Positions 1 to 30,887 of a stretch of DNA of 31,895 nucleotides are shown here, piece after piece. The DNA comes from Trichormus sp. ATA11-4-KO1 (GTDB taxonomy: Bacteria; Cyanobacteriota; Cyanobacteriia; Cyanobacteriales; Nostocaceae). Under the pieces are notes generated by a model, which was not told the DNA's origin, searched no databases, and saw nothing but the letters and a program-made list of their open reading frames with translations. The position numbers and the translations under genes were made by a program. Positions within the stretch are counted from its first letter, which is position 1; every line of letters starts with the position of its first letter. The stretch spans positions 1 to 31,895 of the forward strand of contig JAHHIM010000044.1 of assembly GCA_019358915.1 (NCBI GenBank). Direction: 5' to 3'.

Positions 1-125
1 TAATGTTCCAGATTGCATTGTGCTGTGGACGGTTTGCTGATTTTTCTGATTGTCCGATACCTATTCATTGGATGATACTTTTTATCAATCCACTCTTTTG
101 CCACTTTGTCAATGCGTAAGTCCTA
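1..125 (-). mobile_element. End of an IS701-family-like insertion sequence, running off the left edge
   Basis: Minus strand begins TAGGACTTACGCATTGACA (terminal repeat at 113-125). An ORF from ATG at 68 reads MNRYRTIRKISKPSTAQCNLEH, resembling the N-terminus of cyanobacterial IS701-type transposases. The same 13-bp repeat bounds the MITE at 15112-15205. Confidence 0.75.
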
Positions 126-1691
126 ATTGCTACTATTTATTAGTTGATAAACAGCTTGTTGATTTTTGCGGGACAACTGCTGTATTCCATTAATTGCTTC
201 TGTCAACCAACGGTCAAACTGATTGTTACCACGAATAAACCAATCACGCAGCCCTTCTGGTGTTCCTCCCTCTCCACCACACCATCTATCTGCCATAGTC
301 AGCAGCACATTAACAAGATATTCAGCAGCAAAGTAGTTTGCCTGATATTCAACCGTGAGAACACTAACAAAGGCATGGTGGATGGCATGGTAACACAGAT
401 TTTTCTGTGTCGAAGCAGAAAATTGGAGCTTAGTTAGCAAATCGGAATTGAGGTCAAAACAAACTCCCTCCGTCAATATCTGGTATCCTAAAGCACAGTT
501 ACTCAGGCTCTCCTCGTCTGCTGTAAAACCCAGGACTCCACGAATTTCTTCAGCTGGTGAATTGTGGAATTTAATTGTGTATTCACTTCCCAAAATAATT
601 CGCTGCACATCTAACAAATTAAGATTTGCAGTTTCGTCACTGTGAAAAACAACTCGTTGTATTAATTCTTGCCCTAATGGATCGCAAACAAGTGAAGGAT
701 GACCAGGCTTAAGGGTATATGCGGGCGTGGGAGTATCACCTCGGACAGGGCGAATTGCTACCGCACTGATAGCGTTAGCCGAACAGGAGTGGGCTAATGA
801 TTGTGTATCTTGGGCTGCATTTTCAGAGGTACGGCTTTCAGATAATTCTCCTGTTTCTGGGTTACACCACCAAAATGATGAGTTATAGTCTCGACTAAAC
901 TGCTTAGGCTTAATTGCAGTGGGACGATATAAATTCAAAAAGTTGGTACTTTTTTTACTAATGTCAACTTTCTTTAGCGCCCGTGTTGGCAAGTTAACTG
1001 TATTTGTTAAGCCTTCGTAGAAAATTTGGCACAAAAATCCTTCTGACTCATCGTCAAGTACCTGTTTTATGGCATCGTCTGGGATTGCAAAAGTTTGTTG
1101 GAGATAATCTTTAAATTCCAGTAACACTCCAAAATCGACACTTTGCTCCATTAAATACTCGTACCCCTGCCGAGATAAATTATCGAGTTCGAGGTCGATT
1201 CCCGCACAACTTGCCCGATAAACTAACCAGTCGAAGAAAGCATAAAATCCATGAATTCTTTGCAGGTATCGGTTTTGGGAATTGAGAGGAAGTTTTTGGA
1301 AAGTAGGGTCTGTAAGTATGTGTTCGTTACGAAACAAAAATAAGTCAGTAGATTTATAGGGGCTGAGTACTGTAACTACAATCGGTCGTGTGCCAACTTT
1401 CCGCCCTCCCCGACCTTTACGCTGTACAAAACTAGCGACATTTGCAGGTGCTGTGTATTGTAAAACACACATTAATGCTTCGTCGTCGTAACCGACTTCT
1501 AATGCTGTTGTTGTAATTATTAAATCATCATCAGGCTCGATAGTAATTGAGCGATCGCTCCCTGTTTTCCGTGTAATATTTAGAGATTCTTGACGTGCCT
1601 TATCTTTCTGGCTGAGTACCCACCAGCACTCTCCTGCTTGGAAATATGGACAATTTAAATCTGGAATTTTACTGTTATGGCAATTACAGTC
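123..1691 (-). pseudogene. C-terminal part of a DpdJ-paralogous SF2 helicase (HelicC domain), cut by the IS at 125
   Basis: The frame stays open upstream of the 1472 ATG: DCNCHNSKIPDLNCPYFQAGECWW...TTTALEVGYD (motif V), then ASFVQRKGRGGR (motif VI; DpdJ in this window has ASFLQRKGRAGR). The stop TAG is supplied by the IS terminal repeat. Confidence 0.8.
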
Positions 1692-2797
1692 CTGGCAAAC
1701 TGGATAAACGGATATTGCTTGTCACAGATAGGACAAATCAAGGTTTGTGGGTTTGTGGGACGCACAAGTAATCGTTGTTTATCTGTTTTGCAAGCTTTAC
1801 CATCTGTACCTACACAGTAAGCAAAAGGTGATAGATAACCTGCATATTCTTCGCTAAAAGTCCAGCCCCGTTGCTTAGAAAGTTTTTGTTGGCGATCCGC
1901 AGTGATATCTTGGAAGTCTCGGATTTGATAAACTGCTGCACCACTTTCTACCCCAATTGTCAGTTGTGGAAGATTGTACTTTGCTAGGACTTGGTTGAGA
2001 TAAAATAATACTTCAATAAAATCAGTCAGTTGATTTTCGGACAGTGCAACCCGTGGGTAAATGCAAATCGCTTTAACCCCTTCTCGCCCGCGCAAGCAAC
2101 GTTCTAGCACCATCTTGGCGAGTACGGGTAAAAAGAAAGCGTAGGTTTTACCCGCTCCTGTGCTAGCAGTAACTACAACGCCTTTTTCGATACCTTCTTG
2201 TGCTTTTAACTCGATTGCTTCGAGAATTCTTTCTAAAGTTCGTTTTTGGAAGCCACTCATCTGACGTAGCTTCGGGAGATAGGTGTCAATTACCTCTAAA
2301 ATTAGGTTTGCTGTTCGCTGTTGCTCTGTATCACCACTAAGTAAAGGTGTCATGCAGGTTTGTACTGCTATGTTCCTTCGAGGTACGCGACGAGAAGCGA
2401 CACTAAACTTAATATCTGCCACTAAACGCTTGCTATTGCTGATGCGGTGCGCTACTTTGAGGTTGTTTTCTCGAACAATTCTTTGACGGAGTTTTGATAG
2501 CAACCTGACAGTTTCTGCGATTCGACTGCGAAAAATCCAGTTATCAGGAGATTCTCCTTGGTTAAAGCGGATAATTTGCAAGTCCTGTGCAAGTTGCTCT
2601 AAAGCCTTTCTGAGAGCTTCTGGTTTTTCTTCAGGAGTTAATTTGATGTCTTCGGAGGGTTGAAAATTATCAATTACTTCAACCCCTGCCATTGTTACAT
2701 CATAAATGCCATAGGCAACCTGTTCTGCTTCGCGTTGTTCAATGAAGGTCAGAACTTCATCAGCCAGGCGTTTTATTGCGTCAGAGTCTAAGCTCAT
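1655..2797 (-). pseudogene. N-terminal part of the DpdJ-paralogous DEAD/DEAH helicase
   Basis: Q motif (SGFQ), Walker A ASTGAGKT, motif Ia IYPRVALSENQ and CxxC. The N-terminus aligns with DpdJ at 14375-14890 (FRSRIAETVRLLSKLRQ vs FRTRMAEAVRLFARLRQ). The frame breaks at about 1690 before any DExH motif. Confidence 0.8.
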
Positions 2798-2866
2798 GGT
2801 TGTTGAACTTTAAGGTAGATGAACTCGAAAAATTAGGGTTGGCTAATGCCATCTAGTTACAACGCT

Positions 2867-3172
2867 TTAGCTGCCATCAACTGTTCTCTTACCCATGTTT
2901 GAACGGGCTATTTTACGGTGTTCCAATAACTCATCGAGTAACTGATTTTGTTCATCTGGGTTTTCCCAATCTTTGATGAATCTCCTTAAAGCAACGCTGA
3001 CCATATCCTGCACAGTAGGTGCAGCACTTTGATATTGGCTCTCAAGCGAGAGCCTAATTTCACGCAATGTTTCGTAGAGGTTTGCCGGTACGCGGACTGT
3101 TGAAGACAAGGTTTGATCACTTGATGGGTAACTTTCGCATTCTATTAATCTTGGAGGTACATTTGCCACCAT
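2867..3172 (-). CDS. Small putative ribbon-helix-helix DNA-binding protein
   Basis: 101 aa; SSTVRVPANLYETLREI...TVQDMVSVALRRF fits the strand-helix-helix RHH pattern. It lies upstream of and co-oriented with the helicase paralog. Confidence 0.6.
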   Translation of the reverse strand: MVANVPPRLIECESYPSSDQTLSSTVRVPANLYETLREIRLSLESQYQSAAPTVQDMVSVALRRFIKDWENPDEQNQLLDELLEHRKIARSNMGKRTVDGS

Positions 3173-3181
3173 GTATACATG
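3170..3181. promoter_or_regulatory. Perfect 12-bp palindrome CATGTATACATG in the divergent promoter, a candidate operator
   Basis: Overlaps the RHH-gene start codon and enters the 55-bp gap before the DGQHR gene; nearby GTACA motifs on both sides. Confidence 0.4.
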
Positions 3182-3227
3182 AGTACAAGATTGGTTAGCA
3201 TTAAGCTTTACATTGGAGAAATAAACT

Positions 3228-4322
3228 ATGGAACTTGTACTTCGGGCTGTACCTGTGCGTCGGGGTGTGCAAGAAATACATCAAAGTTATGTTGGCAGTC
3301 TGTATTTTGGCGATGTAGTTCGACTTCTAGACGATGAACGCTTATATATTCCTAACAGTCCAGACTTGCCAGACTTGGCCCAACGTAAACTCAATCCGAC
3401 ACGAGTCAAGGCGATCGCTCGGTATATTCTGGAGACTTATGAAGATGGGACTACGTTTTTCCCACCGATTTGCGTTAACGTTCAGCCACGCCCAACCTAC
3501 AGGGATGGCAGTCTTTACCTGCCTTATCACTCTGTTGCTTTACGCTTAACTGATGGTCAGCATAGATGCTATGGCATTCGTCAATCGCTCTTAGATATTC
3601 AGGCGCAACAGTCAGAGTATGCCATCATCCTTTCACAGTTAGAAATTGGTGTATTGATATATGCGGGATTGCCACTAGAGGAGGAGCGTCAAGCCTTCCG
3701 TGACCAAAACCTTTTAGTGCAAAGACCAAGTGTATCGCTTTCGCATATGTTTGATAAGCGATCGCCTACAGTTTTAATTGCCAAAGATTTGCTCCAGCGA
3801 GTTCCTCAGTTCCGTAATAATGTAGAAATGGTGGAGAACGGCTTGGGTAAGCATAATCCCAAGTTGTTGACACTTTCTACCCTGGTGACAGCCACGAAAT
3901 ATATGTTTCCCAATCTCAACTCTAAAAAAGATTTGGAATTGCGAATTGATTGGGCAGCAACGTTTTGGGCTGCTGTAGCCAGCATTTTACCTGATGACCC
4001 TTGGAAAATTAAAAGCAAGGAGGAGCGCACAGATCAAAGACAGGAGTCCCTGACGGTTAACGCAGTTGTATTCCAGGCTTTGGGAATGTTGGCTCGCGAT
4101 TTGTTATTAGAAAATGTTCCTGAACAGGAACTGGTCAAGTGGTTGAATAGACTGCGGGAGATAGATTGGCGTAAACGCAATGAATTTTGGTTGGAGCGAG
4201 GAGTCACGCAAGTTGGGGCAGCAGGAGACCCAATTATTCAAAATACACGGACTACTGTGGATGCCTGCCATAGAGTTTTGCGTGAGTTTGTTGGTATACT
4301 CCCTGTAAGTAATGTTGTTTAA
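3228..4322 (+). CDS. DGQHR-domain (ParB/Srx fold) protein, DndB/DpdB-like
   Basis: AQRKLNPTRVKAIARYI, FFPPICVN, LTDGQHR and FRDQN...RPSVSLSHMFDKR are DndB-family-like. RBS GGAG precedes ATG 3228. Confidence 0.85.
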   Translation: MELVLRAVPVRRGVQEIHQSYVGSLYFGDVVRLLDDERLYIPNSPDLPDLAQRKLNPTRVKAIARYILETYEDGTTFFPPICVNVQPRPTYRDGSLYLPYHSVALRLTDGQHRCYGIRQSLLDIQAQQSEYAIILSQLEIGVLIYAGLPLEEERQAFRDQNLLVQRPSVSLSHMFDKRSPTVLIAKDLLQRVPQFRNNVEMVENGLGKHNPKLLTLSTLVTATKYMFPNLNSKKDLELRIDWAATFWAAVASILPDDPWKIKSKEERTDQRQESLTVNAVVFQALGMLARDLLLENVPEQELVKWLNRLREIDWRKRNEFWLERGVTQVGAAGDPIIQNTRTTVDACHRVLREFVGILPVSNVV

Positions 4323-4475
4323 TTTACATATTTATTGACAGTAAGATATCACAAGATACCCACCTCATGCTGAGAGTGCGATGGACTATACCCCCACCTT
4401 TCCTGGGGATTGCGTTGAGCGCAGTGCTGTAGGCAATCACTGATCAAAGACAACCTATTGTTATGTATCAAATCC

Positions 4476-6764
4476 TCAGACGGCTAAATAATCCCGTATT
4501 ACCCGCAGCATACTTGCACTACCTTTACTATTAACCAAAAGAATTGGTGCAAGATTTGATGGGCGATGCGTTTCAATAAAACCTGTGGCTGCGTGTTTGG
4601 CACTAGCTGTTACCATGACAACAATATCAGAATTTCTCACCCACTGACGCAGCCTATCATTACCCCCTTTATCATGGCTGAGGTAAACTGTAACCTCTTG
4701 GCAAGCAGTTTCCAAAATGCTTTTCACCCTTAAGGCTGCTGATTCTGTCAAAGTGTAAATAAGAATAGATTTCCCCTTCAGTTTTTGGAAGATATTCGCT
4801 TCAACCTCAATACTTGGTTCTACCAAACTTGCTTGTTCGCCGAGTAAATTTGGCAGTGATTCTTGTAAGTTAAGGTCTTTCACCAGAGAACGAAAAATCC
4901 CCCATTGAGTCTCGTCAATACGTCCGGCAAAGCGACGCAGACTTTCAGCAACCGTAAATAATAACTGTTCGCGCCTCTGGGGAACTGCACAGGGGTACAA
5001 TACCAGTAGGTCAAGTAGGTCAAGCATCCAATCAACCTTTTTAGGAGCGTTAAAGCGATTCCAGAGTTCCAAAGCATGGTCTAGAATTTCGCTATATATT
5101 GCAGCGTCAATTCCCAAAGTTAAAAGTGCGATCGCTAAATCATTAAACAAAATCAAATCAGCATCTCCACCCAGGGTGCTGAGAACTAGCAGTTCTAGCA
5201 GCGAATGATAAAGAATCAAAAACTCGCCACGGGGAAATTGTTCATCTTTTTGAAAAAAGGCTAACAAGTGGGGAAGGGCATTGTGCAGCACAGACTCAGC
5301 TTTTGAGCCGACTTTATCTAACAATTCGTCAAAATCTGCCACTGCTTGCGGCTGCATCAGCAAACTGGTGACATCCCACTCAGCAGAACCTTGGTATGCA
5401 GTATATAAAGCTCGCTCCCAATTTGGATCTTTGTCCAACTGCAACAGCCACTCAAGCCAATTGATCGGCACAGTTTCGGCTGTTGGGGTGTTTTGTGTTG
5501 CATCTTCTTGCCTTCCGGACAGTTGGTTAAGAAAATCTCGGTTCCAACGTACCTTGAGCAAAGCTGTTTGCTCATCAGCAGTCAGCGCATCAAAGGCTTG
5601 CAATGCAGCTTTTTCTACTGCCAAGGTTCCCAATTCATAGGCACACTGCAAGAGTAAGCGAACTTTGTCCTTCGATGAGGGAGCATCACAGAGCAATGAA
5701 AAGGCTTGGTCAAAGTCGCCATCCTTGCATAGCTGTTCAGCTCGTTGCAATTCCCCAGCATCCCACTCTATTGGCTTTTCCAAGTGAGGAGGGGCAATAT
5801 CGGGTAGGAGTGCAGCTAACCTTTGTAGATAGTGGCGATCGCTCTCCTCAACTCCTGGAATTGCCAGCAGTTCGTCACGGAGGGCAGGTTGTGGCGGTTC
5901 TCCACCGACAGCCAGGAGCATGAATAATTTCAACACTTCTGGGAGCTTACTACCAGCACGCACCGCAAAAAGACTTCTGTAACGGGGGAAAATGACTTCT
6001 CGGAAATAGGCTATAGCACTCGTAAGGGCGTTATTTTCCTCAAAATGTTGCAGATGGGTGCGGTACACTGCCTGAAGTAAAGCTTGGGTAACAGCAAAGG
6101 GTCGGCGAACCTGTAAGAGATTAGTCGATTCTAGAAGGTTAAGTAACTCGTTCCATTGCTGTAATTCTGCTAAGAGTTGTACCCGCAAAAATAGGAGATT
6201 GAGGGCATCCAGGCGATGCTGGTCTAGGAGGTATTGCAGGGAGTTTTCCGCAGAAACGCGATCGCCTGCTTGCAGTGCCATGTAAAAGTCGCGCAGTACC
6301 CGACCCGTGGGCAGAGGAATTTCTACTACTCGCTTGACTCGGCGATCGCTCACCCGGCGCATCCGTTCTAAAGCTTCCCAAACAGTTGTCGCCTGTCCAC
6401 TCAATTTGACTACTGCACCGCCAGTAAATTTGTAAACTGCTAATTCTACAGGATCTTGCAAGTTTAGCTGGGCCCGTTGTCCTCGGAATGTAGAGTAGGT
6501 GGGGCCAACGAATGCCATCAATTCTTCACTCAAGGTGCGTAATTGGCGTTGGCTTTGGGCTATGCCATACCAATCTACCCCACCTTCACGCCAACGGGGG
6601 AGAACCGTTGGTTGAGGTTCAGTTTGGGTCAATCGTTCCACCCAAGGACGAATTTTGGCATGGTTGCCTTCACCACGTTCGATTTTTCCCAGGTCTAATT
6701 GATTACCTGCGCCAAAGAACTGCTCTAGGAAACGGCGGACATCGGTATTGCTAGAATTACTCAT
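4476..6764 (-). CDS. dpdD: DpdD-like protein
   Basis: About 762 aa; C-terminal ILIYTLTESAALRVK...SAKHAATGFI...KGSASML is DpdD-like. ATG 6764 overlaps the dpdK stop (ATGA). Confidence 0.8.
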   Translation of the reverse strand: MSNSSNTDVRRFLEQFFGAGNQLDLGKIERGEGNHAKIRPWVERLTQTEPQPTVLPRWREGGVDWYGIAQSQRQLRTLSEELMAFVGPTYSTFRGQRAQLNLQDPVELAVYKFTGGAVVKLSGQATTVWEALERMRRVSDRRVKRVVEIPLPTGRVLRDFYMALQAGDRVSAENSLQYLLDQHRLDALNLLFLRVQLLAELQQWNELLNLLESTNLLQVRRPFAVTQALLQAVYRTHLQHFEENNALTSAIAYFREVIFPRYRSLFAVRAGSKLPEVLKLFMLLAVGGEPPQPALRDELLAIPGVEESDRHYLQRLAALLPDIAPPHLEKPIEWDAGELQRAEQLCKDGDFDQAFSLLCDAPSSKDKVRLLLQCAYELGTLAVEKAALQAFDALTADEQTALLKVRWNRDFLNQLSGRQEDATQNTPTAETVPINWLEWLLQLDKDPNWERALYTAYQGSAEWDVTSLLMQPQAVADFDELLDKVGSKAESVLHNALPHLLAFFQKDEQFPRGEFLILYHSLLELLVLSTLGGDADLILFNDLAIALLTLGIDAAIYSEILDHALELWNRFNAPKKVDWMLDLLDLLVLYPCAVPQRREQLLFTVAESLRRFAGRIDETQWGIFRSLVKDLNLQESLPNLLGEQASLVEPSIEVEANIFQKLKGKSILIYTLTESAALRVKSILETACQEVTVYLSHDKGGNDRLRQWVRNSDIVVMVTASAKHAATGFIETHRPSNLAPILLVNSKGSASMLRVIRDYLAV

Positions 6765-7276
6765 GGCTCTACTCCTCCCCAACGGTTAGCAAAAATTACC
6801 TGTTGTTCAGCGATAATTTCTGGGGATGTCTCATAAATTACTGCTTCCTCATTGACTGTAATACCGTTGTAAGTAAAATTCATCGAACCTGCAAGATAAT
6901 ACCCGTCTCCCAGGATACCTTTGGCGTGTAATTCTTCAGTAATGTGGATGTGGCAGTTTGTGCCGTCATTTCTAACTTTGAGTGCTGACAAAAAACTATG
7001 GTTGTGGGAGTCGGGACGGGTGGCGATGTGTATGGTGGTTCCCTGTGCTGCTAGGGTAGCGAGGATTTGGGAAAGGCGAATGCGGGAGCGACTCCAAGCT
7101 GGTTCTAGGCACAGGAAGATGTTGGCAGTGTTATCGATAACAGGTATGTCAGATAGCCAGGGGGAAACAAGCCAGATACACTGACTGGGATTAATGAGTT
7201 CGGCGACGAAAATAGTTTGGAGTAAGTCAGGGATTTGGCGGGAACTTAGCCGCGAGTGGATATAGCGGGAGGGCAT
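6761..7276 (-). CDS. dpdK: Phospholipase D-like nuclease DpdK
   Basis: WLVSPWLSD, single HKD-type motif LHAKGILGD and GSMNFT; directly upstream of dpdD. Confidence 0.88.
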   Translation of the reverse strand: MPSRYIHSRLSSRQIPDLLQTIFVAELINPSQCIWLVSPWLSDIPVIDNTANIFLCLEPAWSRSRIRLSQILATLAAQGTTIHIATRPDSHNHSFLSALKVRNDGTNCHIHITEELHAKGILGDGYYLAGSMNFTYNGITVNEEAVIYETSPEIIAEQQVIFANRWGGVEP

Positions 7277-10308: not shown

Positions 10309-10311
10309 GTA

Positions 10312-11202: not shown

Positions 11203-14200
11203 TCACTGCACTGTCTCCCTGACTCGTAACCGCACCCCAAACCCCTGTGGATACCTCTGCATCCCCTCCACCACTGGATAAACTTGCAAAAACCCAACTT
11301 CCATTGGTTCCACTGCCAAACTCAACATTGCTGACTTTAAATCCCCCCGTGCATCAGGACGCGCTATCAGCGAAACCGAAGCACCTTGCTTAAACGCCTC
11401 CTCCACCTGTTTGCGCCAGTCGGGTTCATCCAGCCAAACTGTACGATCGCCTACTTGCAAAACATCCAGTAAAATTTCTCTATCAGCATCGGGAATCACA
11501 ACAAAGGGATTATAGGAAGATAAGGCACGCGATCGCACTATATTTCCCCTTGCCCACAACAGTCCATAAATCACTTGAAATCGCCAATAGGGATTAGGCT
11601 GCAATAAACCAAGATGCGACAACGCCTGATCCAATTGGTCATTATTACTAACTACATAGGCAAAAACCCGCCCATCAATTTCGATACCTAAGCGTTGTTC
11701 TTCTGTATGCCACAAACTAATTAAATTCAACAGCAGTTGATCTGTTTCGCAGTTACTCCCTGGACGCAAAACCCGTGCATTAATTGCAGTTATCACTGGG
11801 TGTATTGCCAAAATTCCCGCAGAAGATAGGACTTGACGCAGGCGATCGCTTGCCTGTTTTAATTCATTATGCCCCTGTGTTAACCTCACCTCTGCCATTG
11901 CATCAGCAACTTCCACACTGGTTTGGGTTAACTCCAGTAACCGAGTCAGTTCTGAATCCACAATCTCAAAATCCGAAGCTGCCAACGCACTCCCCGCCAA
12001 CCGGAAAAAATTCGCTGGGTCAGCTGCATAACGCCGTAAAATCTCCTCAATCACCCCACCACCGCCAATGGTAGACTCAGTAATCCAGATTTCTTCGCCC
12101 TCACTCTCAACATTTACATCTTCTGGACGCGGCCCCGGATCAATATCTAAAATCAAGTCCCCCACATCAAAATGAGGGCATAACTGATTGCAAGCATCCA
12201 GCAAAGCCCCTCCCAAAGTTGCTTTGAACCGTAATGCTGCCCAAGTGTGCCACTCCTCATCCGGTTCTGACCAGAGAACTGATGCCAAGTCGTTTAAAAT
12301 AATTTGAATTGTGTCCGTCCTGCAAAGTGCCAGCAATCTGTCATGTACCCTCTGCCTTTCTTGTATCTGGTCTGGTAACGACTCCTCGCCGTCCTCAAGT
12401 AAGGTTTCCTTGACATCCAATGTTTGGAAGATATTGTCTAAAACCCTTGCCATTTCCTGACCTATATCTTCTCCTAAAAGAACCTTAAACGCTTCAGCCA
12501 AAGAAATTTTGTCTGTTAAGGCACGGGCAGTGAGCATTGATATATATATTTGATAAAGCCACTCCCGTTGAAAGACATTGGTTAACTCGCACAACCTGAT
12601 ATCTGTCAATACTCGATGTCGGAAATAAGCTGTCCGAAAGGCGCGAACCTTATTTTGATTGGAGTCACTGGGATTGATACGGAAATGAGACGGGATGCAA
12701 AAACGAAATACCAAACCGTCAACGGATTGGGCGAATCCGACGGCAGCCGGACTACCGTCCAGTTTCTGTGTAAAGTGAATGGTGGTGTCAAGTTCCTGTC
12801 CATTGTCGAAGCGGATGTTAGCATGGGATGCTATGGCAAACCGCCGCACCTCTACTGGTGATTGTTGACTGTGGGTAAAGCAACAAACTTCTGTAATAAT
12901 TTCGCACCACGGCGAACCTTGAGGTAAGTCGAGTTTTGTGCCAGATTCCGGTGGTATGATTTGACTACGCCATTCTAATTGAGCATTAGATGTAATTGAA
13001 ACGTTTGCTGGTACTTGAGTTGGGTTAATCGCCCAAGAACGAATGCAGCGAATATCTATAACCTCTTCATTTTGCCAAAACTGAAAATTCCCCGCCTCTT
13101 CAAATTCAGCACAATAGTCTTCTACGGGTAAGTATTGTTCGCTTTGTTGCAAGTTAGGTGGGGCAATCCAGTGAGTTGCATAGATATGCTGCACTCCAAA
13201 ACGGCGCGTTGCCCTGCCTGGGGTAAAAGTTTTCAGGGCTTGGACGATGGGCATGGAGTTGACATCTGGTTCACTGTTACGCGTCTGCGCTGGTGTAGTA
13301 ATTGTTACTTCTGGTAACAGCAGGTCACTAAATAAATTCGGGGGGACAAAATCCGGTAATGGGTCGTAAGTTTGGTAGTCTTGGTCTGACTCATCTGGAT
13401 GAATAGGAAGACGCTTCCATCCAGATTCTAACCGCCGTAGCAAAGTGGGAAGTACCGCCATCATTAATGACCTTGGCGGTTCCCAGAGAATTGCTTCGAC
13501 CTCATCTTGAGTGAGGTGTAGTGCTGTTTGCAGATATGCAGCTAAGTTTTGTTCCCCAGCTTCCGTTTCCAGAATGTTTTTAATCAGTTTTATCTCTTGT
13601 TGCTGGCGGTTATTTGAGTATGAAAGCGATGAAGACGATTTGGCAAAGTCATTCCATACACTTCCTTTGCTAGCAGTAGCTAATTGCTGTGCTACCCAAT
13701 CTATGAAGGCGAATACAGCTTGAATGCGGATAACATAGCGGTTAGCAATAGGTAGAGAACGCTTTTCTAAAACGGGGTTAAACAGCATATCGTAGCCTTG
13801 ATAGGCAATGCGATCGCGTCCGTAATCAGAAAGTACCACCACCGTCCAAGGTCGCATAGTTCTGCGTCGTCCCGCCCGCCCTTTACGCTGGAGGAAAGAT
13901 GCCATATCTCGCGGTGCTTTGTGCTGAATTACACCTCCAACTTCTGGGTCATTAAATCCTACTTCCAGGGAAGCAGTAGCAACAATGACATCTGCATCTG
14001 GCGTAACTCCGGTATCTTGGGAACTGGTGCGCCCAATGGTTAAAGGAAGTTGCAAGCCGTGACCGATTTCTTCGCATAAATACCAAGATTGACCAGCAAT
14101 CAGCCGTTCTCTGGTATCGGCTGCACCATGCGATCGCAAAGCTGCTAATGGTTGTCTTCCCCGCAAGGGACGACCCCAACTATCCCGACCTTCAGCATCC

Positions 14201-14890
14201 AAAAGGTTGTGGAATAAGCGATTTGTAACATCTAAATCATCGGTAAAGGCGAAAACACGAGAACCATAAAAACCTTTGCTGGGGGGTTCGTCAGCCGGGT
14301 CTAGTATGCGCCGTAACAACATCGCCGTTTGAATGCTGGTAGACAATAGACTTGTCCCTGATACGGGGTCGCCTCTAAGAACTAATTGATACTCCATCCC
14401 CAAGTTGAACTTCACCACGCGGTGGTGAATTAAGGATAGCTGCAACAGCTTTTTGTCGGATCGGAGTTAATAGTTTATCTGCCTCTAGCTGTTCAATTAC
14501 TGTTTCAGGTGTAATATACCTTTGAGGATAAACTCTGGGACGGATTTGTAAGCGGTAGTCAGCCACTAAAGTAGGCGCAGTTTGCCAATGATTTTTAGGA
14601 AATAATTGACGAAGCCGCGCAAATAATCTTACAGCTTCTGCCATTCTGGTGCGGAAAAGGCGACGACCTCTAAGGTTAAATTCAAATAGTAATCGCCGTT
14701 CCAGCATTTCATGAATTAAATCCCACATCTCGACATCAGACTCATAATTATTCAGCAAGTCTGCTGCCATTTCTGCAATTTCTTCCTCTACAAATCCTCC
14801 ATCCACAATTCCCCAGGTGAGGAGTGTTATTTCCTTAATCTCTAGCAAATTTAGGAATTGTTGAATTAAGGAATTTATCGAGGCATTCAT
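11203..14890 (-). pseudogene. dpdJ: DpdJ helicase split by an internal deletion/frameshift at about 14400
   Basis: N-terminal ORF 14375-14890 (LLTWGIVDGGF, LVADYRLQIRPRVYP) and C-terminal frame 11203 to about 14400 (LRGDPVSGTSLLST, FTDDLDVTNRL, ATASLEVG, QRKGRAGR). Neither piece has Walker A or DExH. Confidence 0.82.
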
Positions 14891-15233: not shown

Positions 15234-16028
15234 TTAATTCAAGCGAATACGTAAGGAGCTAATGAGTCTATGTTGAATTAGCCATTCTTTTACTTCTGGA
15301 GTTAAAAGGTCAATAGTTGCTCCTTGAGTAGCAGCAGTTTTGAGAAAATTTTGTACATCTTCAGGTATTTGGTCTGAATTTAGACTATCTACACATAGCC
15401 GTAATTCGTTAATTAAATTATCTATTCTGTCAAATTCTTCACTATTTTTGGGAAACTCAACTTCTTGTATTTGTTTATCTAAAGTATAAATTTTATGAAT
15501 AGTTGACCTAAGTGTTACCACTTCAGCAAATATTTCCAGCATTTCTTTCTTAGTGCTGGGTAAATACTGATTAAGATAACTTTTCCAAGCTTGTATCAAA
15601 CTCTGGTGAAGTGAGTTTTTCAAGCTTACTATATCTCTACTAAAAGTCTTACCATTGAATTTATTATTATCAATAATCGATTCAGGATCATTTCGGAAAT
15701 TGTCTTCAGCAATCTTAACAAAATTTAACAATTTATCTAATTTTTGATTTACATCAAAATTGATAATATTTTTTTGCTTAAAAGCTCTCACCGCAATCAT
15801 AAGAGGCTTAATTTCTTGAACAGCTTTTGTAATTTCTTCTTGTCGTGATGTAAAGCCATCAAGTTGGTCAGCATACTTTTTTAAATCCAATTTAATTTTA
15901 GATAAATCAATGAGGTGTTGACATTTATCCTTTAAAGATTCACGATTATCCTGAGAAATTTGATTAACAGAATTAACAGGTTCGATATTTAAATTTAAAT
16001 TGTTACTGCTATCTAATATATCTATCAT
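15234..16028 (-). CDS. dpdI: DpdI-like coiled-coil protein
   Basis: Position between dpdH and dpdJ, 264 aa, C-terminal PEDVQNFLKTAATQGATIDLLTPEVKEWL. Confidence 0.65.
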   Translation of the reverse strand: MIDILDSSNNLNLNIEPVNSVNQISQDNRESLKDKCQHLIDLSKIKLDLKKYADQLDGFTSRQEEITKAVQEIKPLMIAVRAFKQKNIINFDVNQKLDKLLNFVKIAEDNFRNDPESIIDNNKFNGKTFSRDIVSLKNSLHQSLIQAWKSYLNQYLPSTKKEMLEIFAEVVTLRSTIHKIYTLDKQIQEVEFPKNSEEFDRIDNLINELRLCVDSLNSDQIPEDVQNFLKTAATQGATIDLLTPEVKEWLIQHRLISSLRIRLN

Positions 16029-16054
16029 TTCATCCTCCCCAATTAATCGTTTGT

Positions 16055-19000
16055 TTACCCTTGAATTTCAGTGAGCAAGCTACGCAATTCTACTAAACCA
16101 TCCTGAATTGCTTGATGGCTTGATTCAACTGTCGCACCGCCAGATGTTTTTAAATCATTTATCTCTTTATTTACTGCGTCGAGAGAAGCATCAAGAAAAT
16201 TACTTGTATTCTTGAGGAATTCTGTAGCATCTGTCATAGCTTTTTGATAATTTTCGCTTAAATAATGAAGCAGTTTACCTGTTTTAGCTTCAGGATTTTC
16301 TTGCTCTATTTGGACACGTTTCATTGTTTCTACATAGCTAGTAAATCTAGTACGGTTAAACTGTTCTAAGAGTGAGGTAAGGTCATCAAAGTTCTTCCGC
16401 CCACGAAATACACCTGCTCCTCTGGCTGCTTCCATTGCCTGTTTTACAATGTAGACTACATCTTTTTTCTTAATATCTTCTCCTAATTCATATACCAGAG
16501 AATGGTACACAGAAAGCTGGCGCTCGCTCTCTTCCTGAAGTGCTTTGTCTAACAATTCATCTACTTGTTGACGTACCTTACATAATTCTGTAAATTTATC
16601 GCGCACATCTTCAGGAATTTGATATTGAGGTTGCCAAGATTTACGGGTTTGTTCTAAAGGTTGTATAATTTGAGCCGCATCAATGATTTGAAATGTAGAG
16701 TTACTTCCTTTAGTGCAAGCAATTCTACTTTTGAGAATTTCTAATAATGCTTTCTGATTTTTCGTAAAGACATTAAAAAGCTGTTCCCAAGCTTTCGCAC
16801 GAGTTATATTTTCATTGTTAGGTAGGTCAATAAATAAAGCATTAATCAAATTTTCGAGCGTATTAGTAGAATACCCCGCCATTGTCGCTGCGATCGCCAA
16901 TAACTCCACCGTTGCTGGTACTGGGTTCCAGGGTTCTCCAGATTCACGGGGATAAAGGCAAATTTGCTCTAAGACGTACTCACTCCAACGTTCTAAATAC
17001 TTGGCATAGGTGCGAAAATAGCGATCGCCATCAGGGAATTTCCAATGCTTATAATGGTTGTACAATAAAATACCTTGAAATGCGAATGCAGTTTCTTTAA
17101 ACTCATTCGAGTCGCTTGGGTTTAGGGGAAGTGATAAAACTACCCCAGAATAAGTCCCTCTCTTGACTTTTGGATTGTAAAAAATTACATTCCTTTGCTG
17201 GAACAATCTACCACCACTACCGACAAAATTACCTTTCAGCAGCATTTCTGTATCCCATTCAATTTTTTGGGTAATAGCTGGAAAGACAAACTCACGAATA
17301 TCTTTAGCGATGTTGTCAGGAAGGATTTCTTGATTATTCCAACTGTCGAGATCCTTTATTTTTTTGCTCAGTGTCTCTGGTAGTTCTTGTACCGTTACCG
17401 GAGGTTCACTATCAGGTTCAGAACGAGGCTTGTATGATGTTGCAGAAGCAGCAGCGCGTGGTGTACCAGGATTAATTTCTGTTTGATGAATCTTGACACC
17501 TAATGGGGGTAAATTAAAAGCTGTATGAACTTCTGTAGGTAAGTCGCAAAGTTCATTACTATTAGTCCAAAGGTCTAGGAGAATTTCACGACGATCAAAG
17601 TTTTGCTGGTCTTTAGCTTTAATATCTAGCTGTACTTTAGCACTCAGCCTCATTTTACCAAAATGTTGTCGTAGAGTTACTGAGGGAAACTGCCTATTTT
17701 GAATATCGTCAACCGAATTTTCTAAAGTGTACTTAACAACATCTTTAATTAAAATTCTTGGATTAAAATCGCTAGGGTTAACTCTACTAAACATCTGTAT
17801 TAAAGCGTTAGGTGTGAATGGATAAAGTCCTATTCCATTAACAGCACCAAATCCAGCATGACAAGCTTGACGGTATTCACACTCTGTACAAGAGCTTATC
17901 AGGGATTCTCTTTGAAAATCCTCTTGATTATGAGAATTTGCCCAATCCTCAATCACCTGTTCTTCTAAACGCACAGCGTTTAAATATCTAGTAACAAATG
18001 CTTCAATATCAGCCTGAGTAATTAAAGATTGTTCACCAACTTTACCAATATCTAAGTTAACGTTAAAAGTGACACGTTGTTGTACTGTATCAATTAAACT
18101 TTCAAAATAACCCGTAGTACAAGCTAGTGCAGTGCGTATAGCACATAATGGTTTGCTTCCTGGTTGTTGAGGTCTTGCCAGGACAGCTTCTAATAATTCT
18201 CTATCAATACCTTGCAATTTAGCAAAATCTTCTATAAGTAAAACTAACTCAATGCCCTGTTCTGCTAAAGTCTCACGGACTTCCTTCATTAATCTTTGTA
18301 AATCTTCTCGTCCCAAGTTTAACACTTGGGTAATGGCTTCATCTAGATGCAGATTCAACCAATCAACAGTGGCTTTTTGAATATTATCATCACCAATGAG
18401 AAGACTGTAAAATTCTTGAGCTTGTTTGCCTGCTTTTGGTAAATTTAAAACATTAAGAGGTAAGTCATCTATAGAAAATTTACGCCGTTCTTCAATAATT
18501 TCTACCTTATCTTGATATCCTAAAATATGAATAACTAAGCGATGAATAATACCGCCATCTTGAAGCCAATATTCTCGGAAGAAAGGGTCATATAATAGAG
18601 AATCTAGTTCATCAACGAGGTAATTTTGCTCATCAGTGAGTTTAGAGCGATCGCGCCTACCATTATCACCGACTGCTGCGGCTAATTGATTGAGTAATTG
18701 TACACGCGCTTGAGTTTCAGTTAAAGTATTGGTTGCTCGATTTACATGTTGACGATATTCCTCAAACTTCTCGCCTTCTATCCCTTTAAGAATCAGAGTG
18801 ATAATATCTTTTAAGTTAGTTCCAATTTTAGGAATTAGTAATACCTTACGCTGAGGTATAGATTTGATATTAGCTGCTAACCAACGAATAAGGTGAGATT
18901 TTCCTGTTCCAGAACCGCCTAAAACAGGCACAAAAGCAAAATCTTTTTCAGCTAGAAAATCTCTGAGAAATTTCTCTTCATCATATTCAACCCGTGATGA

Positions 19001-19141
19001 TGCTTTAATCAATTCTTGACGATACATCGCCACTGGATGATGTGTTGCTAGAAACAAATGATTTGGAGGTTGAGTTGCTTCTACATCCATCACCCGGCGA
19101 ATCATATTAGGCTTCCAGCAAACAAAATTTTTAAAAGTCAT
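16055..19141 (-). CDS. dpdH: DpdH P-loop ATPase
   Basis: N-terminal LFLATHHP, Walker A GGSGTGKSH, Walker B LLIEDF, CxxC and LYPFT; ATGA overlap with dpdG. Confidence 0.85.
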   Translation of the reverse strand: MTFKNFVCWKPNMIRRVMDVEATQPPNHLFLATHHPVAMYRQELIKASSRVEYDEEKFLRDFLAEKDFAFVPVLGGSGTGKSHLIRWLAANIKSIPQRKVLLIPKIGTNLKDIITLILKGIEGEKFEEYRQHVNRATNTLTETQARVQLLNQLAAAVGDNGRRDRSKLTDEQNYLVDELDSLLYDPFFREYWLQDGGIIHRLVIHILGYQDKVEIIEERRKFSIDDLPLNVLNLPKAGKQAQEFYSLLIGDDNIQKATVDWLNLHLDEAITQVLNLGREDLQRLMKEVRETLAEQGIELVLLIEDFAKLQGIDRELLEAVLARPQQPGSKPLCAIRTALACTTGYFESLIDTVQQRVTFNVNLDIGKVGEQSLITQADIEAFVTRYLNAVRLEEQVIEDWANSHNQEDFQRESLISSCTECEYRQACHAGFGAVNGIGLYPFTPNALIQMFSRVNPSDFNPRILIKDVVKYTLENSVDDIQNRQFPSVTLRQHFGKMRLSAKVQLDIKAKDQQNFDRREILLDLWTNSNELCDLPTEVHTAFNLPPLGVKIHQTEINPGTPRAAASATSYKPRSEPDSEPPVTVQELPETLSKKIKDLDSWNNQEILPDNIAKDIREFVFPAITQKIEWDTEMLLKGNFVGSGGRLFQQRNVIFYNPKVKRGTYSGVVLSLPLNPSDSNEFKETAFAFQGILLYNHYKHWKFPDGDRYFRTYAKYLERWSEYVLEQICLYPRESGEPWNPVPATVELLAIAATMAGYSTNTLENLINALFIDLPNNENITRAKAWEQLFNVFTKNQKALLEILKSRIACTKGSNSTFQIIDAAQIIQPLEQTRKSWQPQYQIPEDVRDKFTELCKVRQQVDELLDKALQEESERQLSVYHSLVYELGEDIKKKDVVYIVKQAMEAARGAGVFRGRKNFDDLTSLLEQFNRTRFTSYVETMKRVQIEQENPEAKTGKLLHYLSENYQKAMTDATEFLKNTSNFLDASLDAVNKEINDLKTSGGATVESSHQAIQDGLVELRSLLTEIQG

Positions 19142-20052
19142 GATTTTTCTCCTTGCCAGATAATATGAGAAATTCGCCCATCATCATCAACTTGATTATT
19201 TACTTTGGGCAAAAGCATCAAATCTGCATCTGATTTCCTCAGTAGCTTGATATAACCTTCATCTTGAAGCCTAAATAATGCAAAAGCTGTACTTGTAGAA
19301 AGATAATTAGGCTGACGAAGAACAACTTGTGATTCAACTTCTTCCCTAAATTTACCTGTTTCAAACAAAGGACATTTTCTTGCCAAGCGAGTAATAAAAT
19401 CTGTCAGTAAAATTTCTTGCTCCTCATAAAATATGTCTTTAAGATTACGTTTGATATAAGCAGTTGGATCAGGTACAGTTACTCTTTTTACTCTGGCATT
19501 AGAGTCGGTAATAGTAGCTAGTTTTACCCCTAATGCGTGTCCCCAAGCTAAACCTAAATAACACATCCAGTCATCCAATTGACCATGAAGTACGTTATTT
19601 GACATTTTCAAAAAATCACCGACTTTCTGTCTGTCTACTTGCCGTTCTACTTCTTCCCAATTTCCTGGCGCATCATAAATATCCTGTGCTAAATACCAAG
19701 CACAAACACGACCAAAGTCTTCTTCATCTTCGTTATTGGAAGCAAAGAATAGTTCAGCCAGAGTATCAGGTAATAATTTGTCGCCAAGTTGGGGATTAAG
19801 AGCATTTTCTGGCAAATCTGAGTTAATGGCAATTTCTTCGTCTTCTTTGACTAAAATACCAACTTTCACCATCTCATTAATTGTTGCACGCAGCATTGGA
19901 CGTGGGGAAGGAGCATTTTTTACCAGTTCATCAGGAGATAAAATCTTTTCTAAGACTTCTGTTTTCTCTCGTTGATTTTTTGTAGACAACAAATATCTAA
20001 AAACCCCTCTAACTCTGCTGGGTGTTGCAAAAGGTTGTTTTAAAACACTCAT
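19138..20052 (-). CDS. dpdG: DpdG-like protein
   Basis: 304 aa translationally coupled between dpdF and dpdH; WMCYLG, VPDPT, CPLFETG, SDAD. Confidence 0.75.
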   Translation of the reverse strand: MSVLKQPFATPSRVRGVFRYLLSTKNQREKTEVLEKILSPDELVKNAPSPRPMLRATINEMVKVGILVKEDEEIAINSDLPENALNPQLGDKLLPDTLAELFFASNNEDEEDFGRVCAWYLAQDIYDAPGNWEEVERQVDRQKVGDFLKMSNNVLHGQLDDWMCYLGLAWGHALGVKLATITDSNARVKRVTVPDPTAYIKRNLKDIFYEEQEILLTDFITRLARKCPLFETGKFREEVESQVVLRQPNYLSTSTAFALFRLQDEGYIKLLRKSDADLMLLPKVNNQVDDDGRISHIIWQGEKS

Positions 20053-22583: not shown

Positions 22584-24871
22584 TAATCATCTCCTTCATC
22601 TACAAATTTAATAGGGTTTCGCCCAGATACAATCATGAAACCCACAGAGTCAAGCTTAATTTGAGGCTGGCGAATTCCTTCTAAAATTGCTGCACTAAAA
22701 GCACTTTCTATTTTCAGTTCTCCTGCTAGTTTATAATCCCAAGTCTGTCGATTTAGCCGCAGGCGTAACTGTTCAACTCTGTTACCTAATTTCTGTTCTG
22801 CTGACTTAGTACATCCTTGAAGCCAGTCCATATATTCAGAATTATTAGTGAGTAATTCATAGGAAGTCTTACTCGCTTGATAACAAAAGTTCTGCCATTT
22901 ACTAGCATCAACAAAATCGTCAATAATCCTTAAACGTTCCTTAGCTAAATTGTAATCTCGTCGGTGACTACCATTTTTATATTGATATGGGCGTTCCAGA
23001 ATATTTAATAGTGTTTCATCTGCAACAATGCCCATTGGTTCATAGCGTCCATCAATGAAGATTGTTTTCATGGTTGGTGGAAATAAAGCATCTACACGCC
23101 GCTTCAATGTTTTGTATACAGAACTATCTAGCTGGGAATCTATTAACACCTGTTTGGCAAATTTTAAGTCAGTTTCAATTACATAATTGCATCGAAAACC
23201 GAACCACTCCATTCCTTCCCCAGCATCCCAAGATGTATCTGTGCGCCAGACAGCAAAGGATTGACCTCGGTCATCCCAGTTTATATAATTTAGGAGCGAT
23301 TCTAGCAATCCTTCCCCAATTCGGAAGAGTTTAATTCCAGTATTTTGATTGGCAACCCTGCGGTTATAAGTACCAAATTGCTCTAGATAACTATTAGCAA
23401 AACGAATTTTTAATTCATTCACAGGAATCAAAGTGCGAATTGTAGGTTGATAACGCCGTATCTCCGATGAATTTGGTTTATTGATAGGCTTAAATTCCAA
23501 TACGTCATCAATCCAACCTTCAATTGCTTGTTTAATTTCTAAATGGCAAGCATCATAATTATCTAAATCTTGAAAAGACTGGATGGCAACTTCATCATTA
23601 GCATCAATTTCATCTAAAGCATTTTGTTCGCTAATTTTTACGATTTCCGTTTTAATTTGTGACTGAATCGGCTCAATCATTTCCAACAGTCCAGTCGCGC
23701 TTGATTGGAACAAAGTTTTTTCTAACTCTGCTAGTTTCTCGTCTACGTAAAACTGTAAACTTGCAATTGATTGTTGAAAGATTCCAAACCCATTTTTTAA
23801 AATTTGATACCAAGCATTATGGGGGCTGTCTTCCAAATAGGGGCCAATCAAAACACAGGATTTAACTCCTATTTTGCTGCCAATGCGGTCAAGTCTGCCG
23901 ATTCTTTGCTCTAATTGATTAGGCGACCAAGGGAGATCAAAGTGAATTAACCAGTCAGCAAACTGAAGGTTACGTCCTTCTTCACCAGAGCGATCGCATA
24001 CCAAAATAAAGCAGTTTGGGTTATCCTTGAATCTACTTATGCTTTGCTCAACCTTGTCTGGTGATTCTCCGAATTGATGGCTAGCTACCGTCCCTTCACC
24101 GAAGGTATCAGACAAATATCGCACAAGTTCTGCACAAGTTTGCACAAAACTGGTAAATACTACAAATTTCGGCAGAATATCGTCCCCAATAGGTCTATGT
24201 GTTCTCTGTTGTATTCTTAGTAGTAATTCATTTTTATTTCTGCGAACAGTTGGCGGAATTCTGAAGTATTCAGCTAGCTGATTTAGTAGCACTGTTCTCA
24301 AATTTTCCCTACGTTCTCCATCCTCTATAGGTTGACGAATAACTTTTAGTAAGGATTGCAAAATTTCTTCTTCCCCAGGGAATTTGGGGGTTGTAGTCAA
24401 GATATGAACATCATCCTCGCCAAACTCCTGGATGAGTCGAGAATCAGTTTCACCATTTAAACGTGCAGTAATTACCTGTTCCAAAATGCCTAACCAAGTA
24501 CCAGAACCCAGGAATAACAGCCGAAAAACTCGTTGATACTGCTCCTCATCAGGGGCGATGGTACGCCATTCATCGATGATTTCGTGAATGTCCAGCGATC
24601 GCTCGTCTAAATCATATTCCTCTTTAGGTATAATATTGCGGTCAAATATGACATCTTCCACCGCAGCGCGACGGTTGCGAAGCATTCGCCGATGCAGGCG
24701 ATAGGTATCGCTGATGTGAGTACGAATTGCGCGAACAATCTGATCTATCTCAGTGGAATTTGCTTGTAAACAATTTTCTAAATCGTCTGCTAGCTTCAGT
24801 AAATACCCATCCTCAGCAAATAAATTTCGTAATTGTTTGAGGTTGGTTTTTAGGACAAAAGGTTTTGCACC
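22583..24871 (-). pseudogene. dpdE: 5'-truncated DpdE (SNF2/RapA-like helicase, C-terminal part only)
   Basis: The frame is open from directly after the dpdA stop (GAKPFVLKTN...HISDTYRLHRRMLRNRR). It has CDRSGEEGRNLQ, DLPWSPNQLEQRIGRLDRIG, but no Walker A, DExH or natural start. Confidence 0.82.
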
Positions 24872-29881: not shown

Positions 29882-29938
29882 ACAGACCTAGCAAACCCAG
29901 CTTTTCACCGGGTCCTATTCCTCAACCCAATGAAATAC

Positions 29939-30868: not shown

Positions 30869-30887
30869 TTTGATTACTCTCTTTTTT

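What the first reader, a model, noticed from the sequence alone, without database searches (positions are those of the whole stretch)
123..4322. Non-canonical add-on module: second DpdJ-like helicase plus RHH protein, divergent from a DndB-type DGQHR gene
Seen: a diverged DpdJ paralog sharing the N-terminal domain and motifs V/VI but with extra Cys clusters, a 101-aa RHH-like gene upstream, and a DGQHR gene 55 bp away in the opposite direction, all beside dpdD. Established: the characterised dpdA-K cluster has one dpdJ; DndB is a regulator in phosphorothioate systems and DpdB is an ATPase partner of DpdA. Inference: this may be an undescribed, separately regulated helicase defence sub-system attached to Dpd, or a Dpd subtype with two DpdJ subunits. 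It is the best candidate for a new system in the window.
Basis: partly seen in the sequence, partly recalled or inferred. Interest (0 to 1): 0.8.

Follow-up and report, generated by a model that had tools for sequence, protein, structure and literature searches.

The report
Swappable restriction cassette of cyanobacterial Dpd
Beside a cyanobacterial DNA-marking defence cluster (Dpd) lies a small switch, a likely repressor gene and its conserved binding site, that heads a second helicase-nuclease cassette predicted to cut unmarked DNA; the cassette is intact in relatives, in some the only one of its kind, but it is broken in this genome.

Summary
The three genes are real, but here the second helicase (J2) is a pseudogene: a 733-bp frameshifting deletion removes motifs II-III, 333 bp more are lost, and an IS moves its last 416 codons and two partner genes (PLD nuclease K2, TPR protein D2) to contig C70. 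Relatives carry it intact (14 of 15 loci). J2 is an old DpdJ-like clade (27% to DpdJ, keeps the DUF1998 zinc site), already listed as 'Dpd-like helicase' in a 2025 preprint; this scan found J2-K2-D2 before on other DNA (e1-2476417). The trio is not the fixed unit. The fixed part is DGQHR gene + divergent RHH gene + a palindromic operator, with exchangeable cargo behind RHH (J2 in 18 of 23 genomes; UvrD/PD-(D/E)XK or another helicase elsewhere). The DGQHR gene tracks dpdA (21 of 23), not the restriction genes, and is not a DpdB orthologue; it likely stands in for the missing DpdB. In 5 of 5 compact loci tested, dpdC-A + DGQHR + J2-K2-D2 occur without canonical DpdJ, DpdD or DpdB, and without DpdH. 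New variant of Dpd; function untested.

The parts
1..126 (.). End of an insertion sequence that splits the J2 gene; the other end starts contig C70, which carries J2 residues 1240-1655, K2 (170 aa PLD nuclease, C70:1372-1884) and D2 (732 aa TPR/DUF2325-type, C70:1884-4082)
   Evidence: Same 126 nt at 9 contig ends; matching inverted ends and a 5-bp target duplication on C44 and C70
126..1006 (-). J2 helicase remnant, residues 954-1246 of the 1655-aa intact protein
   Evidence: 98% DNA identity to L013-L015, L017
1007..1690 (-). J2 remnant, residues 614-841 (RecA2 Cys cluster, motifs V and VI); followed by an in-frame 333-bp deletion at 1006|1007
1691..2797 (-). J2 remnant, residues 1-369 (N-terminal domain, Walker A TGAGKT, RecA1 zinc module); followed by a 733-bp frameshifting deletion at 1690|1691 that removes motifs II and III
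2867..3109 (-). Ribbon-helix-helix protein, likely 80 aa from TTG 3109 (101 aa from ATG 3172); predicted autorepressor heading the cargo operon
   Evidence: Atlas feature hits CB_ParB_C 0.92 and MetJ 0.91; model pLDDT 85; weak fold hits include TraM, pCXC100 ParB, omega, PutA RHH domains; conserved core in 34 sequences
3163..3190 (.). Operator-like element of tandem 8-bp boxes with a perfect 12-bp palindrome at 3170-3181, between the divergent genes
   Evidence: Present in 32 of 38 distinct DGQHR upstream regions; matrix score 36.7 here against 17.8 for the next site in the 5.97-Mb genome
3228..4322 (+). DGQHR (ParB/Srx-fold) protein of a cyanobacterial DndB-family clade, intact; likely NTPase partner of DpdA in place of DpdB
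   Evidence: Pfam DndB E 4e-83, no DpdB model hit; own clade; ParB/PadC/SspE/sulfiredoxin fold hits; co-occurs with dpdA in 21 of 23 genomes
4476..7276 (-). Canonical dpdD and dpdK
   Evidence: NCBIfam DpdD 560.8 bits, DpdK 214.7 bits, over cut-off
11203..14890 (-). Canonical dpdJ, itself broken by an about 848-bp deletion at 14400|14401
15234..22583 (-). dpdF, dpdG, dpdH, dpdI
   Evidence: NCBIfam hits (DpdI below cut-off)
22583..26815 (-). dpdC-dpdA fusion cut at its 3' end and joined to a dpdE lacking its first 346 codons; an about 2375-bp deletion at 24872|24873 also removed the 279-aa TGT-like gene found there in relatives

Best explanation
This is a broken copy of an add-on cassette of a cyanobacterial variant of the Dpd defence system, in which an RHH protein likely represses a swappable set of restriction genes, most often a helicase-nuclease-scaffold trio predicted to destroy DNA that lacks the 7-deazaguanine mark, while the divergent DGQHR protein likely serves the marking enzyme DpdA in place of DpdB. 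Steps. Shown: gene content, linkage to dpdC-A, exchangeable cargo, the operator and its tie to RHH, J2's intact helicase motifs and DUF1998 zinc site in relatives, and the lesions here. Inferred: (1) DpdC-A, helped by the DGQHR NTPase and perhaps the 279-aa TGT-like protein, puts preQ0/ADG into host DNA; (2) RHH dimers bind the tandem 8-bp boxes and limit transcription of the cargo operon, and perhaps of the DGQHR gene, so that nuclease output is damped, as controller proteins do in restriction-modification systems (recalled analogy); (3) J2, a YprA/DrmAB-type SF2 helicase, loads on and tracks foreign DNA and licenses the single-HKD PLD nuclease K2, with D2 as scaffold; (4) in compact loci this trio, with or without a UvrD + PD-(D/E)XK pair, replaces the eight genes dpdD-K, and in long loci such as this one it is a second, parallel restriction arm. 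In this strain J2, canonical dpdJ, dpdE and dpdA are all broken, so the whole system is likely dead.
For: J2 full length (1644-1655 aa) in 14 of 15 loci, the 15th at a contig end; K2 follows in 13 and a D2-type gene in 13 of the 15, the other two ending at contig ends. Among 389 family genomes all 16 with K2 have the DGQHR gene and 15 have dpdA. No DpdH in 6 of 15 J2 genomes; in 5 of these tested further (98-99% complete) J2 is the only DpdJ-family gene and DpdD and DpdB are not found (positive controls), and dpdC-A lies within about 9 kb of J2. DGQHR occurs with dpdA in 21 of 23; of 28 genomes with canonical dpdK, it is in 13 of 14 that have dpdA and 1 of 14 that lack it. DpdB model finds no match over cut-off in 13 DGQHR-type genomes. 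Same ParB/Srx fold neighbours as DpdB (PMC10164549 section 32). RHH beside DGQHR in 21 of 23. Operator absent in the 6 DGQHR loci that lack RHH, and a related palindrome 60-64 bp before all 4 RHH genes that head dpdE, against 0 of 10 dpdE genes without RHH. Other cargo in the same slot: UvrD + PD-(D/E)XK, and a third YprA helicase + PLD (complete plasmid NC_019762.1; G048). K2 is 25% identical to DpdK; D2 shares DpdD's C-terminal domain (E 1e-4).
Against: No experiment; nothing shows that J2-K2-D2 reads the mark. One genome (G180, 99% complete) has DGQHR, J2-K2-D2 and dpdE-K but no dpdA match. Seven of 28 dpdA genomes lack the DGQHR gene; three are explained by short contigs or decay and one has true DpdB, but G492, G756 and G760 carry DpdC-A-type genes without it, as does a Paenibacillus plasmid within the 42 kb fetched, so DpdA of this type may need no such partner. 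The protein is DndB-family by HMM and falls outside the DpdB clade, and DndB is a regulator (PMC5699537 passage). D2-DpdD likeness outside the C-terminal domain is weak (prob 7%). The genomes are kin, so the counts are not independent; the four RHH-dpdE loci look like one event. RHH fold hits are all below significance (best E 0.94, Z 6.4). G665 keeps the operator beside DGQHR without an adjacent RHH. The consensus scan found no promoter at the operator.
Confidence: 0.55

Rival explanations
1. The DGQHR protein is a DndB-like, nucleotide-modulated transcriptional regulator of the modification genes and not a catalytic partner of DpdA (compatible with the rest of the best explanation).
For: Pfam/PADLOC/TIGR DndB hits and no DpdB hit; tree places it on the DndB side, not with DpdB; DpdC-A-type loci without any DGQHR gene exist; DpdB is said to be dispensable in some clusters (PMC12839542 passage).
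Against: DpdB is itself related to DndB and found in 92% of dpdA genomes (PMC5699537 passage); the DGQHR gene fills the gap where DpdB is missing; the one conserved site found next to it tracks RHH rather than DGQHR.
Confidence: 0.35
2. J2-K2-D2 is a self-standing defence cassette that senses phage or damaged DNA without reading the 7-deazaguanine mark, and only sits in an RHH-controlled cargo slot of the Dpd island.
For: The slot takes unrelated cargo; J2 keeps the DUF1998 site lost by canonical DpdJ and is only 27% identical; G180 lacks dpdA; J2 is broken or internally deleted in 5 of 18 family genomes (G000, G469, G526, G528, G688), as costly stand-alone cargo often is (inference).
Against: 15 of 16 K2 genomes have dpdA against 28 of 389 overall; gene order and kinds mirror dpdJ-K-D; compact loci would otherwise have a marking enzyme with no DpdJ-type restriction partner.
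Confidence: 0.25
3. J2 is a second subunit that works with canonical DpdJ in one complex (Dpd subtype with two DpdJ subunits).
For: Both helicases share one cluster in most long loci; BRIGADE systems usually have two YprA helicases (10.1101/2025.09.15.676423); a Paenibacillus plasmid has two annotated dpdJ.
Against: J2 occurs without canonical DpdJ in 5 of 5 compact genomes; canonical clusters occur without K2 in 18 of 28 genomes; J2 brings its own PLD and TPR partners and its own operator.
Confidence: 0.07
4. A recent dpdJ duplication, or an assembly artefact.
For: The gene is in pieces in this assembly.
Against: 26.6% identity to DpdJ and a separate clade reaching Chloroflexota at about 50% identity; an independent contig set has the same deleted form with 0 differences.
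Confidence: 0.02

Closest known systems
Dpd system (dpdA-K, Salmonella Montevideo)
   Same: TGT-type DpdA with DpdC, a DGQHR ParB-fold protein, a YprA helicase followed by a PLD nuclease and a DUF2325-ending protein; the long loci hold canonical dpdD-K.
   Different: DpdC fused to DpdA, extra 279-aa TGT-like gene, no DpdB orthologue, RHH-headed cargo slot; J2 is 27% identical to DpdJ and keeps the four-cysteine DUF1998 site; compact loci lack DpdH, DpdD and canonical DpdJ.
'Dpd-like helicase' class of the YprA survey (10.1101/2025.09.15.676423)
   Same: [quoted passage not shown]
   Different: In the parts read the preprint names no system, partners or regulator for this clade.
BRIGADE types I and II
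   Same: Dpd-like systems with two YprA helicases, PLD nucleases, and (type II) a regulator.
   Different: Reported only in halophilic archaea and defined by an ARMADA-like helicase; J2 is classed as Dpd-like and occurs in cyanobacteria and Chloroflexota.
DISARM (DrmA/B/C)
   Same: YprA helicase with DUF1998 zinc site plus single-HKD PLD nuclease.
   Different: Helicase and DUF1998 part are one protein; no methyltransferase in the cassette; linked to DpdA.
DndB of phosphorothioation systems
   Same: Pfam DndB family, DGQHR motif, about 360 aa.
   Different: Only 21-30% identical to other DndB-family proteins compared; lies beside dpdA-type genes, not dndCDE; the genome's dnd-like cluster is on another contig (C1).

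Membership tests
DpdJ (NF041067) | Score over the 800-bit cut-off | tested here: not met
   Intact J2 scores 525 bits
DpdJ (canonical) | DUF1998 four-cysteine site lost | tested here: not met
   J2 keeps Cys1354 and the C-x-C-x-C-x2-C cluster at 1524-1531; all 8 canonical DpdJ rows lack them
YprA family helicase | SF2 motifs plus C-terminal DUF1998-type zinc site | tested here: met
   In intact relatives: TGAGKT, DEIH, SAT, QRKGRGGR and the Cys cluster; PDB hits include YprA and Lhr. The window copy lacks motifs II-III
'Dpd-like helicase' class (YprA preprint) | Listed in that class | tested here: met
   2 J2 accessions found with this label; 5 of the 6 accessions searched were not found in the cut file
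Dpd system | dpdA (TGT) linked | tested here: met
   15 of 16 K2 genomes; truncated in this window
Dpd system | DpdB orthologue | tested here: not met
   No match over cut-off in 13 DGQHR-type genomes; control G550 scores 386 bits; separate clade
Dpd system | dPreQ0/dADG in DNA and restriction of unmodified DNA | not testable with these tools
   Needs LC-MS and transformation or phage assays
DpdK | PLD family, NF041068 cut-off 100 | tested here: inconclusive
   K2 scores 85.7 bits, best family DpdK, HxK and GSxN motifs present, 25% identity
DpdD | Homology along the protein | tested here: inconclusive
   No DpdD model hit; C-terminal domain aligns at E 1e-4, prob 56%; middle region prob 5-7%
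DndB | Pfam PF14072 over cut-off | tested here: met
   279.7 bits; TIGR03233 equivalog 125 of 328 bits not reached
DndB | Located in a dndBCDE operon | tested here: not met
   Neighbours are dpd genes or cargo in the loci mapped
Ribbon-helix-helix regulators | Strand-helix-helix fold binding tandem short repeats | tested here: inconclusive
   No Pfam RHH hit for the window protein; Atlas and weak fold hits agree on RHH; binding untested
BRIGADE | ARMADA-like YprA helicase; halophilic archaea | tested here: not met
   Orthologues labelled Dpd-like; hosts are cyanobacteria and Chloroflexota

The most novel reading that the evidence does not exclude
Cyanobacteria run a modular Dpd system: a fused DpdC-A plus a TGT paralogue and a DndB-clade NTPase write the 7-deazaguanine mark, and an RHH repressor with its own operator forms a socket into which different restriction machines are plugged; the three genes J2-K2-D2 alone are a complete machine that reads the absence of the mark, replacing the eight-gene dpdD-K operon.
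Probability: 0.3. Interest if true: 0.78.

Novelty: new variant of a known kind. Interest (0 to 1): 0.5.

Why it matters
Which of DpdD-K recognise and cut unmodified DNA is open (PMC10164549 introduction: specific roles unknown). Natural compact loci with only helicase, PLD nuclease and TPR protein beside dpdC-A would cut the problem from eight proteins to three. The DGQHR clade would show that DpdB's job was filled twice, and explain why a survey that required dpdA and dpdB found a single cyanobacterial island (PMC12235509 passage). The RHH operator gives a first handle on how a Dpd restriction arm is regulated. For this genome the practical result is that the locus is a decaying relic; work must use an intact relative.

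Tried and rejected
Assembly artefact: rejected. Recoding or programmed frameshift joining the two ORFs: rejected, 733 bp with motifs II-III are physically missing. HIP1-mediated deletion: no GCGATCGC at any of the two J2 joints, and no microhomology at 4 of 4 joints examined. DGQHR as a DpdB orthologue by sequence: rejected. Operator before dpdE without RHH: none in 10; the matrix also found no site near dpdC-A in the loci scanned. Sigma-70 scan of 2700-4600 found 2 sites against 3.8 expected, none at the operator; TTGACA lies 17 nt before the first box in 8 of 31 rows but not in the window, so the promoter is not assigned. No solved relative of the DGQHR protein by sequence. Viral contigs held no relative of a Chloroflexota J2, so its neighbourhood there is unknown. 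The complex predictor was not available, so DGQHR-DpdA binding is untested. My early note that G372's cargo was NurA/HerA-like was dropped: it is an unknown 454-aa gene, PD-(D/E)XK and UvrD. Thiaville 2016 (PMC4801273) was not held. PMC10470545 passages gave nothing on DndB regulation. The Fisher value is not used: genomes are kin. The DGQHR tree left out one DndB-family protein (L154, 361 aa) that my motif filter missed, and warns of long branches.
Full report
What the window holds. The window is the whole contig C44 of a 5.97-Mb cyanobacterial genome. Family scans give a dpd cluster on the minus strand (dpdC-A fusion, E, F, G, H, I, J, K, D) with PADLOC NsnA-C inserted between J and K, then the DGQHR gene on the plus strand, a small ORF and a second DpdJ-like gene, J2.

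The helicase is broken here. J2 appears as ORFs of 380 and 449 aa. Relatives found with its N-terminal part have a full-length ORF of 1644-1655 aa in 14 of 15 loci; the 15th ends at a contig end. Alignment to four of them shows clean losses of 733 bp at 1690|1691 and 333 bp at 1006|1007. The first shifts the frame and removes residues 370-613 with motifs II and III. At 126 an IS end begins; residues 1240-1655 and two further genes, K2 and D2, are on contig C70, and a 5-bp target duplication ties the two contigs together. A 17,018-nt Logan contig of the probable source run matches the window without a difference, and runs X2 and X9 have the 333 and 733 letters in place (contigs only, and X1 is not independent of the assembly's DNA). 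Canonical dpdJ has lost about 848 bp, and about 2375 bp are gone between dpdA and dpdE. The locus is decaying as a whole.

What J2 is. It is 26.6% identical to the DpdJ of the same kind of cluster and scores 525 of 800 bits on NF041067. In a FastTree tree of 43 helicases it forms its own clade, away from canonical DpdJ. Named hits reach Chloroflexota at about 50% identity. It keeps the C-terminal four-cysteine DUF1998-type site that canonical DpdJ rows lack, and has a Cys cluster in RecA2. The YprA preprint (10.1101/2025.09.15.676423; I read parts 1-3 of 7 and passages for 'Dpd') says this site is lost in Dpd but kept in deeper-branching Dpd-like systems. Its Table S1 (PMC12458937, held cut to 34,868 rows) lists two J2 orthologues as 'Dpd-like helicase'. 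K2 is a single-HKD PLD 25% identical to DpdK. D2 has TPR-like repeats and shares DpdD's C-terminal domain (E 1e-4) but little else. So J2-K2-D2 mirrors dpdJ-K-D, firmly for J and K, weakly for D. Earlier scan notes e1-2476417 and e1-2475982 reached this reading on other DNA; I had it before looking and tested it here.

Two architectures. Of 15 J2 genomes, 6 have no DpdH match; in these dpdC-A and a 279-aa TGT-like gene lie next to the DGQHR gene. Five of the six, tested further, have J2 as their only DpdJ-family gene and no DpdD or DpdB (controls 124, 125). In the long form the cassette is appended after dpdD, as here. In 389 genomes of the family, K2 is in 16; all 16 have the DGQHR gene, 15 have dpdA and 10 also have canonical dpdK.

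The trio is not the unit. The DGQHR gene is in 23 of 389 genomes. RHH is beside it in 21 and J2, whole or in part, follows in 18. Elsewhere RHH heads UvrD + PD-(D/E)XK (G491, G593, G751, several metagenome contigs) or a third YprA helicase with its PLD (G048; complete plasmid NC_019762.1, which also carries queD and dpdC-A). J2 is broken in 5 of the 18.

The DGQHR protein. It is DndB-family by HMM and matches no DpdB model; a 29-row tree sets its clade apart from DpdB, with long-branch warnings. Its model (pLDDT 72) resembles Noc, ParB, PadC, SspE and sulfiredoxin, the neighbours reported for DpdB (PMC10164549, sections 32 and 33 read). It goes with dpdA in 21 of 23 genomes; among 28 genomes with canonical dpdK it is in 13 of 14 with dpdA and 1 of 14 without. 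Two Nostoc plasmids with dpdE-K,D and no dpdA in the 42 kb fetched show no annotated DGQHR gene. Against a required role: 7 of 28 dpdA genomes lack it, three of them (G492, G756, G760) without an obvious excuse, and a Paenibacillus DpdC-A-sized dpdA locus has none. I put the DpdB stand-in role at about 0.5 and a DndB-like regulator role at 0.35.

The RHH gene and its site. The conserved core starts at 'LSSTVRVP', pointing to TTG 3109. Atlas neighbours are CB_ParB_C and MetJ; fold hits are weak but include several RHH proteins. Between the two genes lies an element of tandem 8-bp boxes, at 3163-3190 here. It is in 32 of 38 distinct DGQHR upstream regions; the 6 without it also lack RHH. The matrix was built from these regions, so those hits are circular; not circular are its uniqueness in the genome (36.7 against 17.8), a second copy before J2 where UvrD genes intervene (L013-L015), and a related palindrome 60-64 bp before all 4 RHH paralogues that head dpdE, against 0 of 10 dpdE genes without RHH. 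Those four loci probably stem from one event. Tandem short boxes are what RHH dimers such as MetJ bind (recalled).

Literature. Searches for DpdJ, DpdB + DndB + deazaguanine (23), Dpd + cyanobacteria (90), DndB autoregulation (109), DpdA/B/K + restriction (110) and RHH + DGQHR + defence (118) listed no paper that describes this cassette, its regulator or a compact cyanobacterial Dpd; most subscription journals are not searched. PMC5699537, PMC12839542, PMC12235509 and PMC10470545 were seen as passages only.

Verdict. A real, conserved and so far unnamed variant of Dpd, with a regulator and swappable cargo, of which this window holds a dead copy. The helicase clade is catalogued and the J2-K2-D2 block was noted before by this scan; the additions here are the lesions, the DGQHR-dpdA link and the RHH operator. 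Interest 0.5.

Noticed in passing
window 1006|1007, 1690|1691, 14400|14401, 24872|24873: All four deletions in this locus have blunt joints with no microhomology, unusual if they arose by slippage or homologous repair; whether the rest of the genome shows this was not checked.
   Followed up: partly
L013:3912-4751 and other loci; deleted in the window at 24872: A 275-290-aa TGT-like protein (FIDSG, ALGGL, DST motifs) follows dpdC-A and stays beside the DGQHR gene even when dpdC-A is further away; no family names it.
   Followed up: partly
L030, L053, L104, L107 (G071/G665, G372, G469, G526): The four loci with an RHH paralogue directly before dpdE are the ones whose dpdA stops at about model position 300 of 417 and that lack the TGT-like gene: a repressor placed on the restriction operon where modification looks lost; probably one event.
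   Followed up: partly
L055-L056, L059, L060, L148-L150: 14 of 28 family genomes with canonical dpdK have no dpdA match; orphan dpdE-K,D operons are common, also on plasmids.
   Followed up: partly
L039 (G070:C333:76800-101100): A canonical dpdE-K,D operon lies directly behind a 540-aa DGQHR gene and two genes resembling those of dnd clusters (label inferred, not scanned), while that genome's dpdA sits with J2 on another contig: possible pairing of Dpd restriction genes with phosphorothioation.
   Followed up: no
window 7829-11169: Three low-GC genes matching PADLOC NsnA, NsnB, NsnC inserted between dpdJ and dpdK; the same slot holds other cargo in relatives.
   Followed up: no
G000:C2:113063-117849 (L057): A second, full-length dpdE (1103 aa) and a queD on another contig of this genome, without other dpd genes in the 20 kb fetched.
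   Followed up: no
L152 (NZ_CP043762.1): Paenibacillus plasmid with a long dpdA, a second TGT, no annotated DpdB and two annotated dpdJ genes.
   Followed up: no
L046:1944-7744; L058:6604-12422: A third YprA helicase clade (1665-1672 aa, 27% to J2) with a 267-aa PLD occupies the RHH slot.
   Followed up: partly
L144-L145 (G760), L142-L143 (G756): dpdC-A genes with other neighbours (helicases of 799 and 779 aa and a second TGT-like gene; or 194- and 1166-aa genes) and no DGQHR gene: further Dpd-like variants.
   Followed up: no
window 27185-31698: Trypsin-like protease, tyrosine recombinase and small HTH genes at the far end, consistent with a mobile element context.
   Followed up: no
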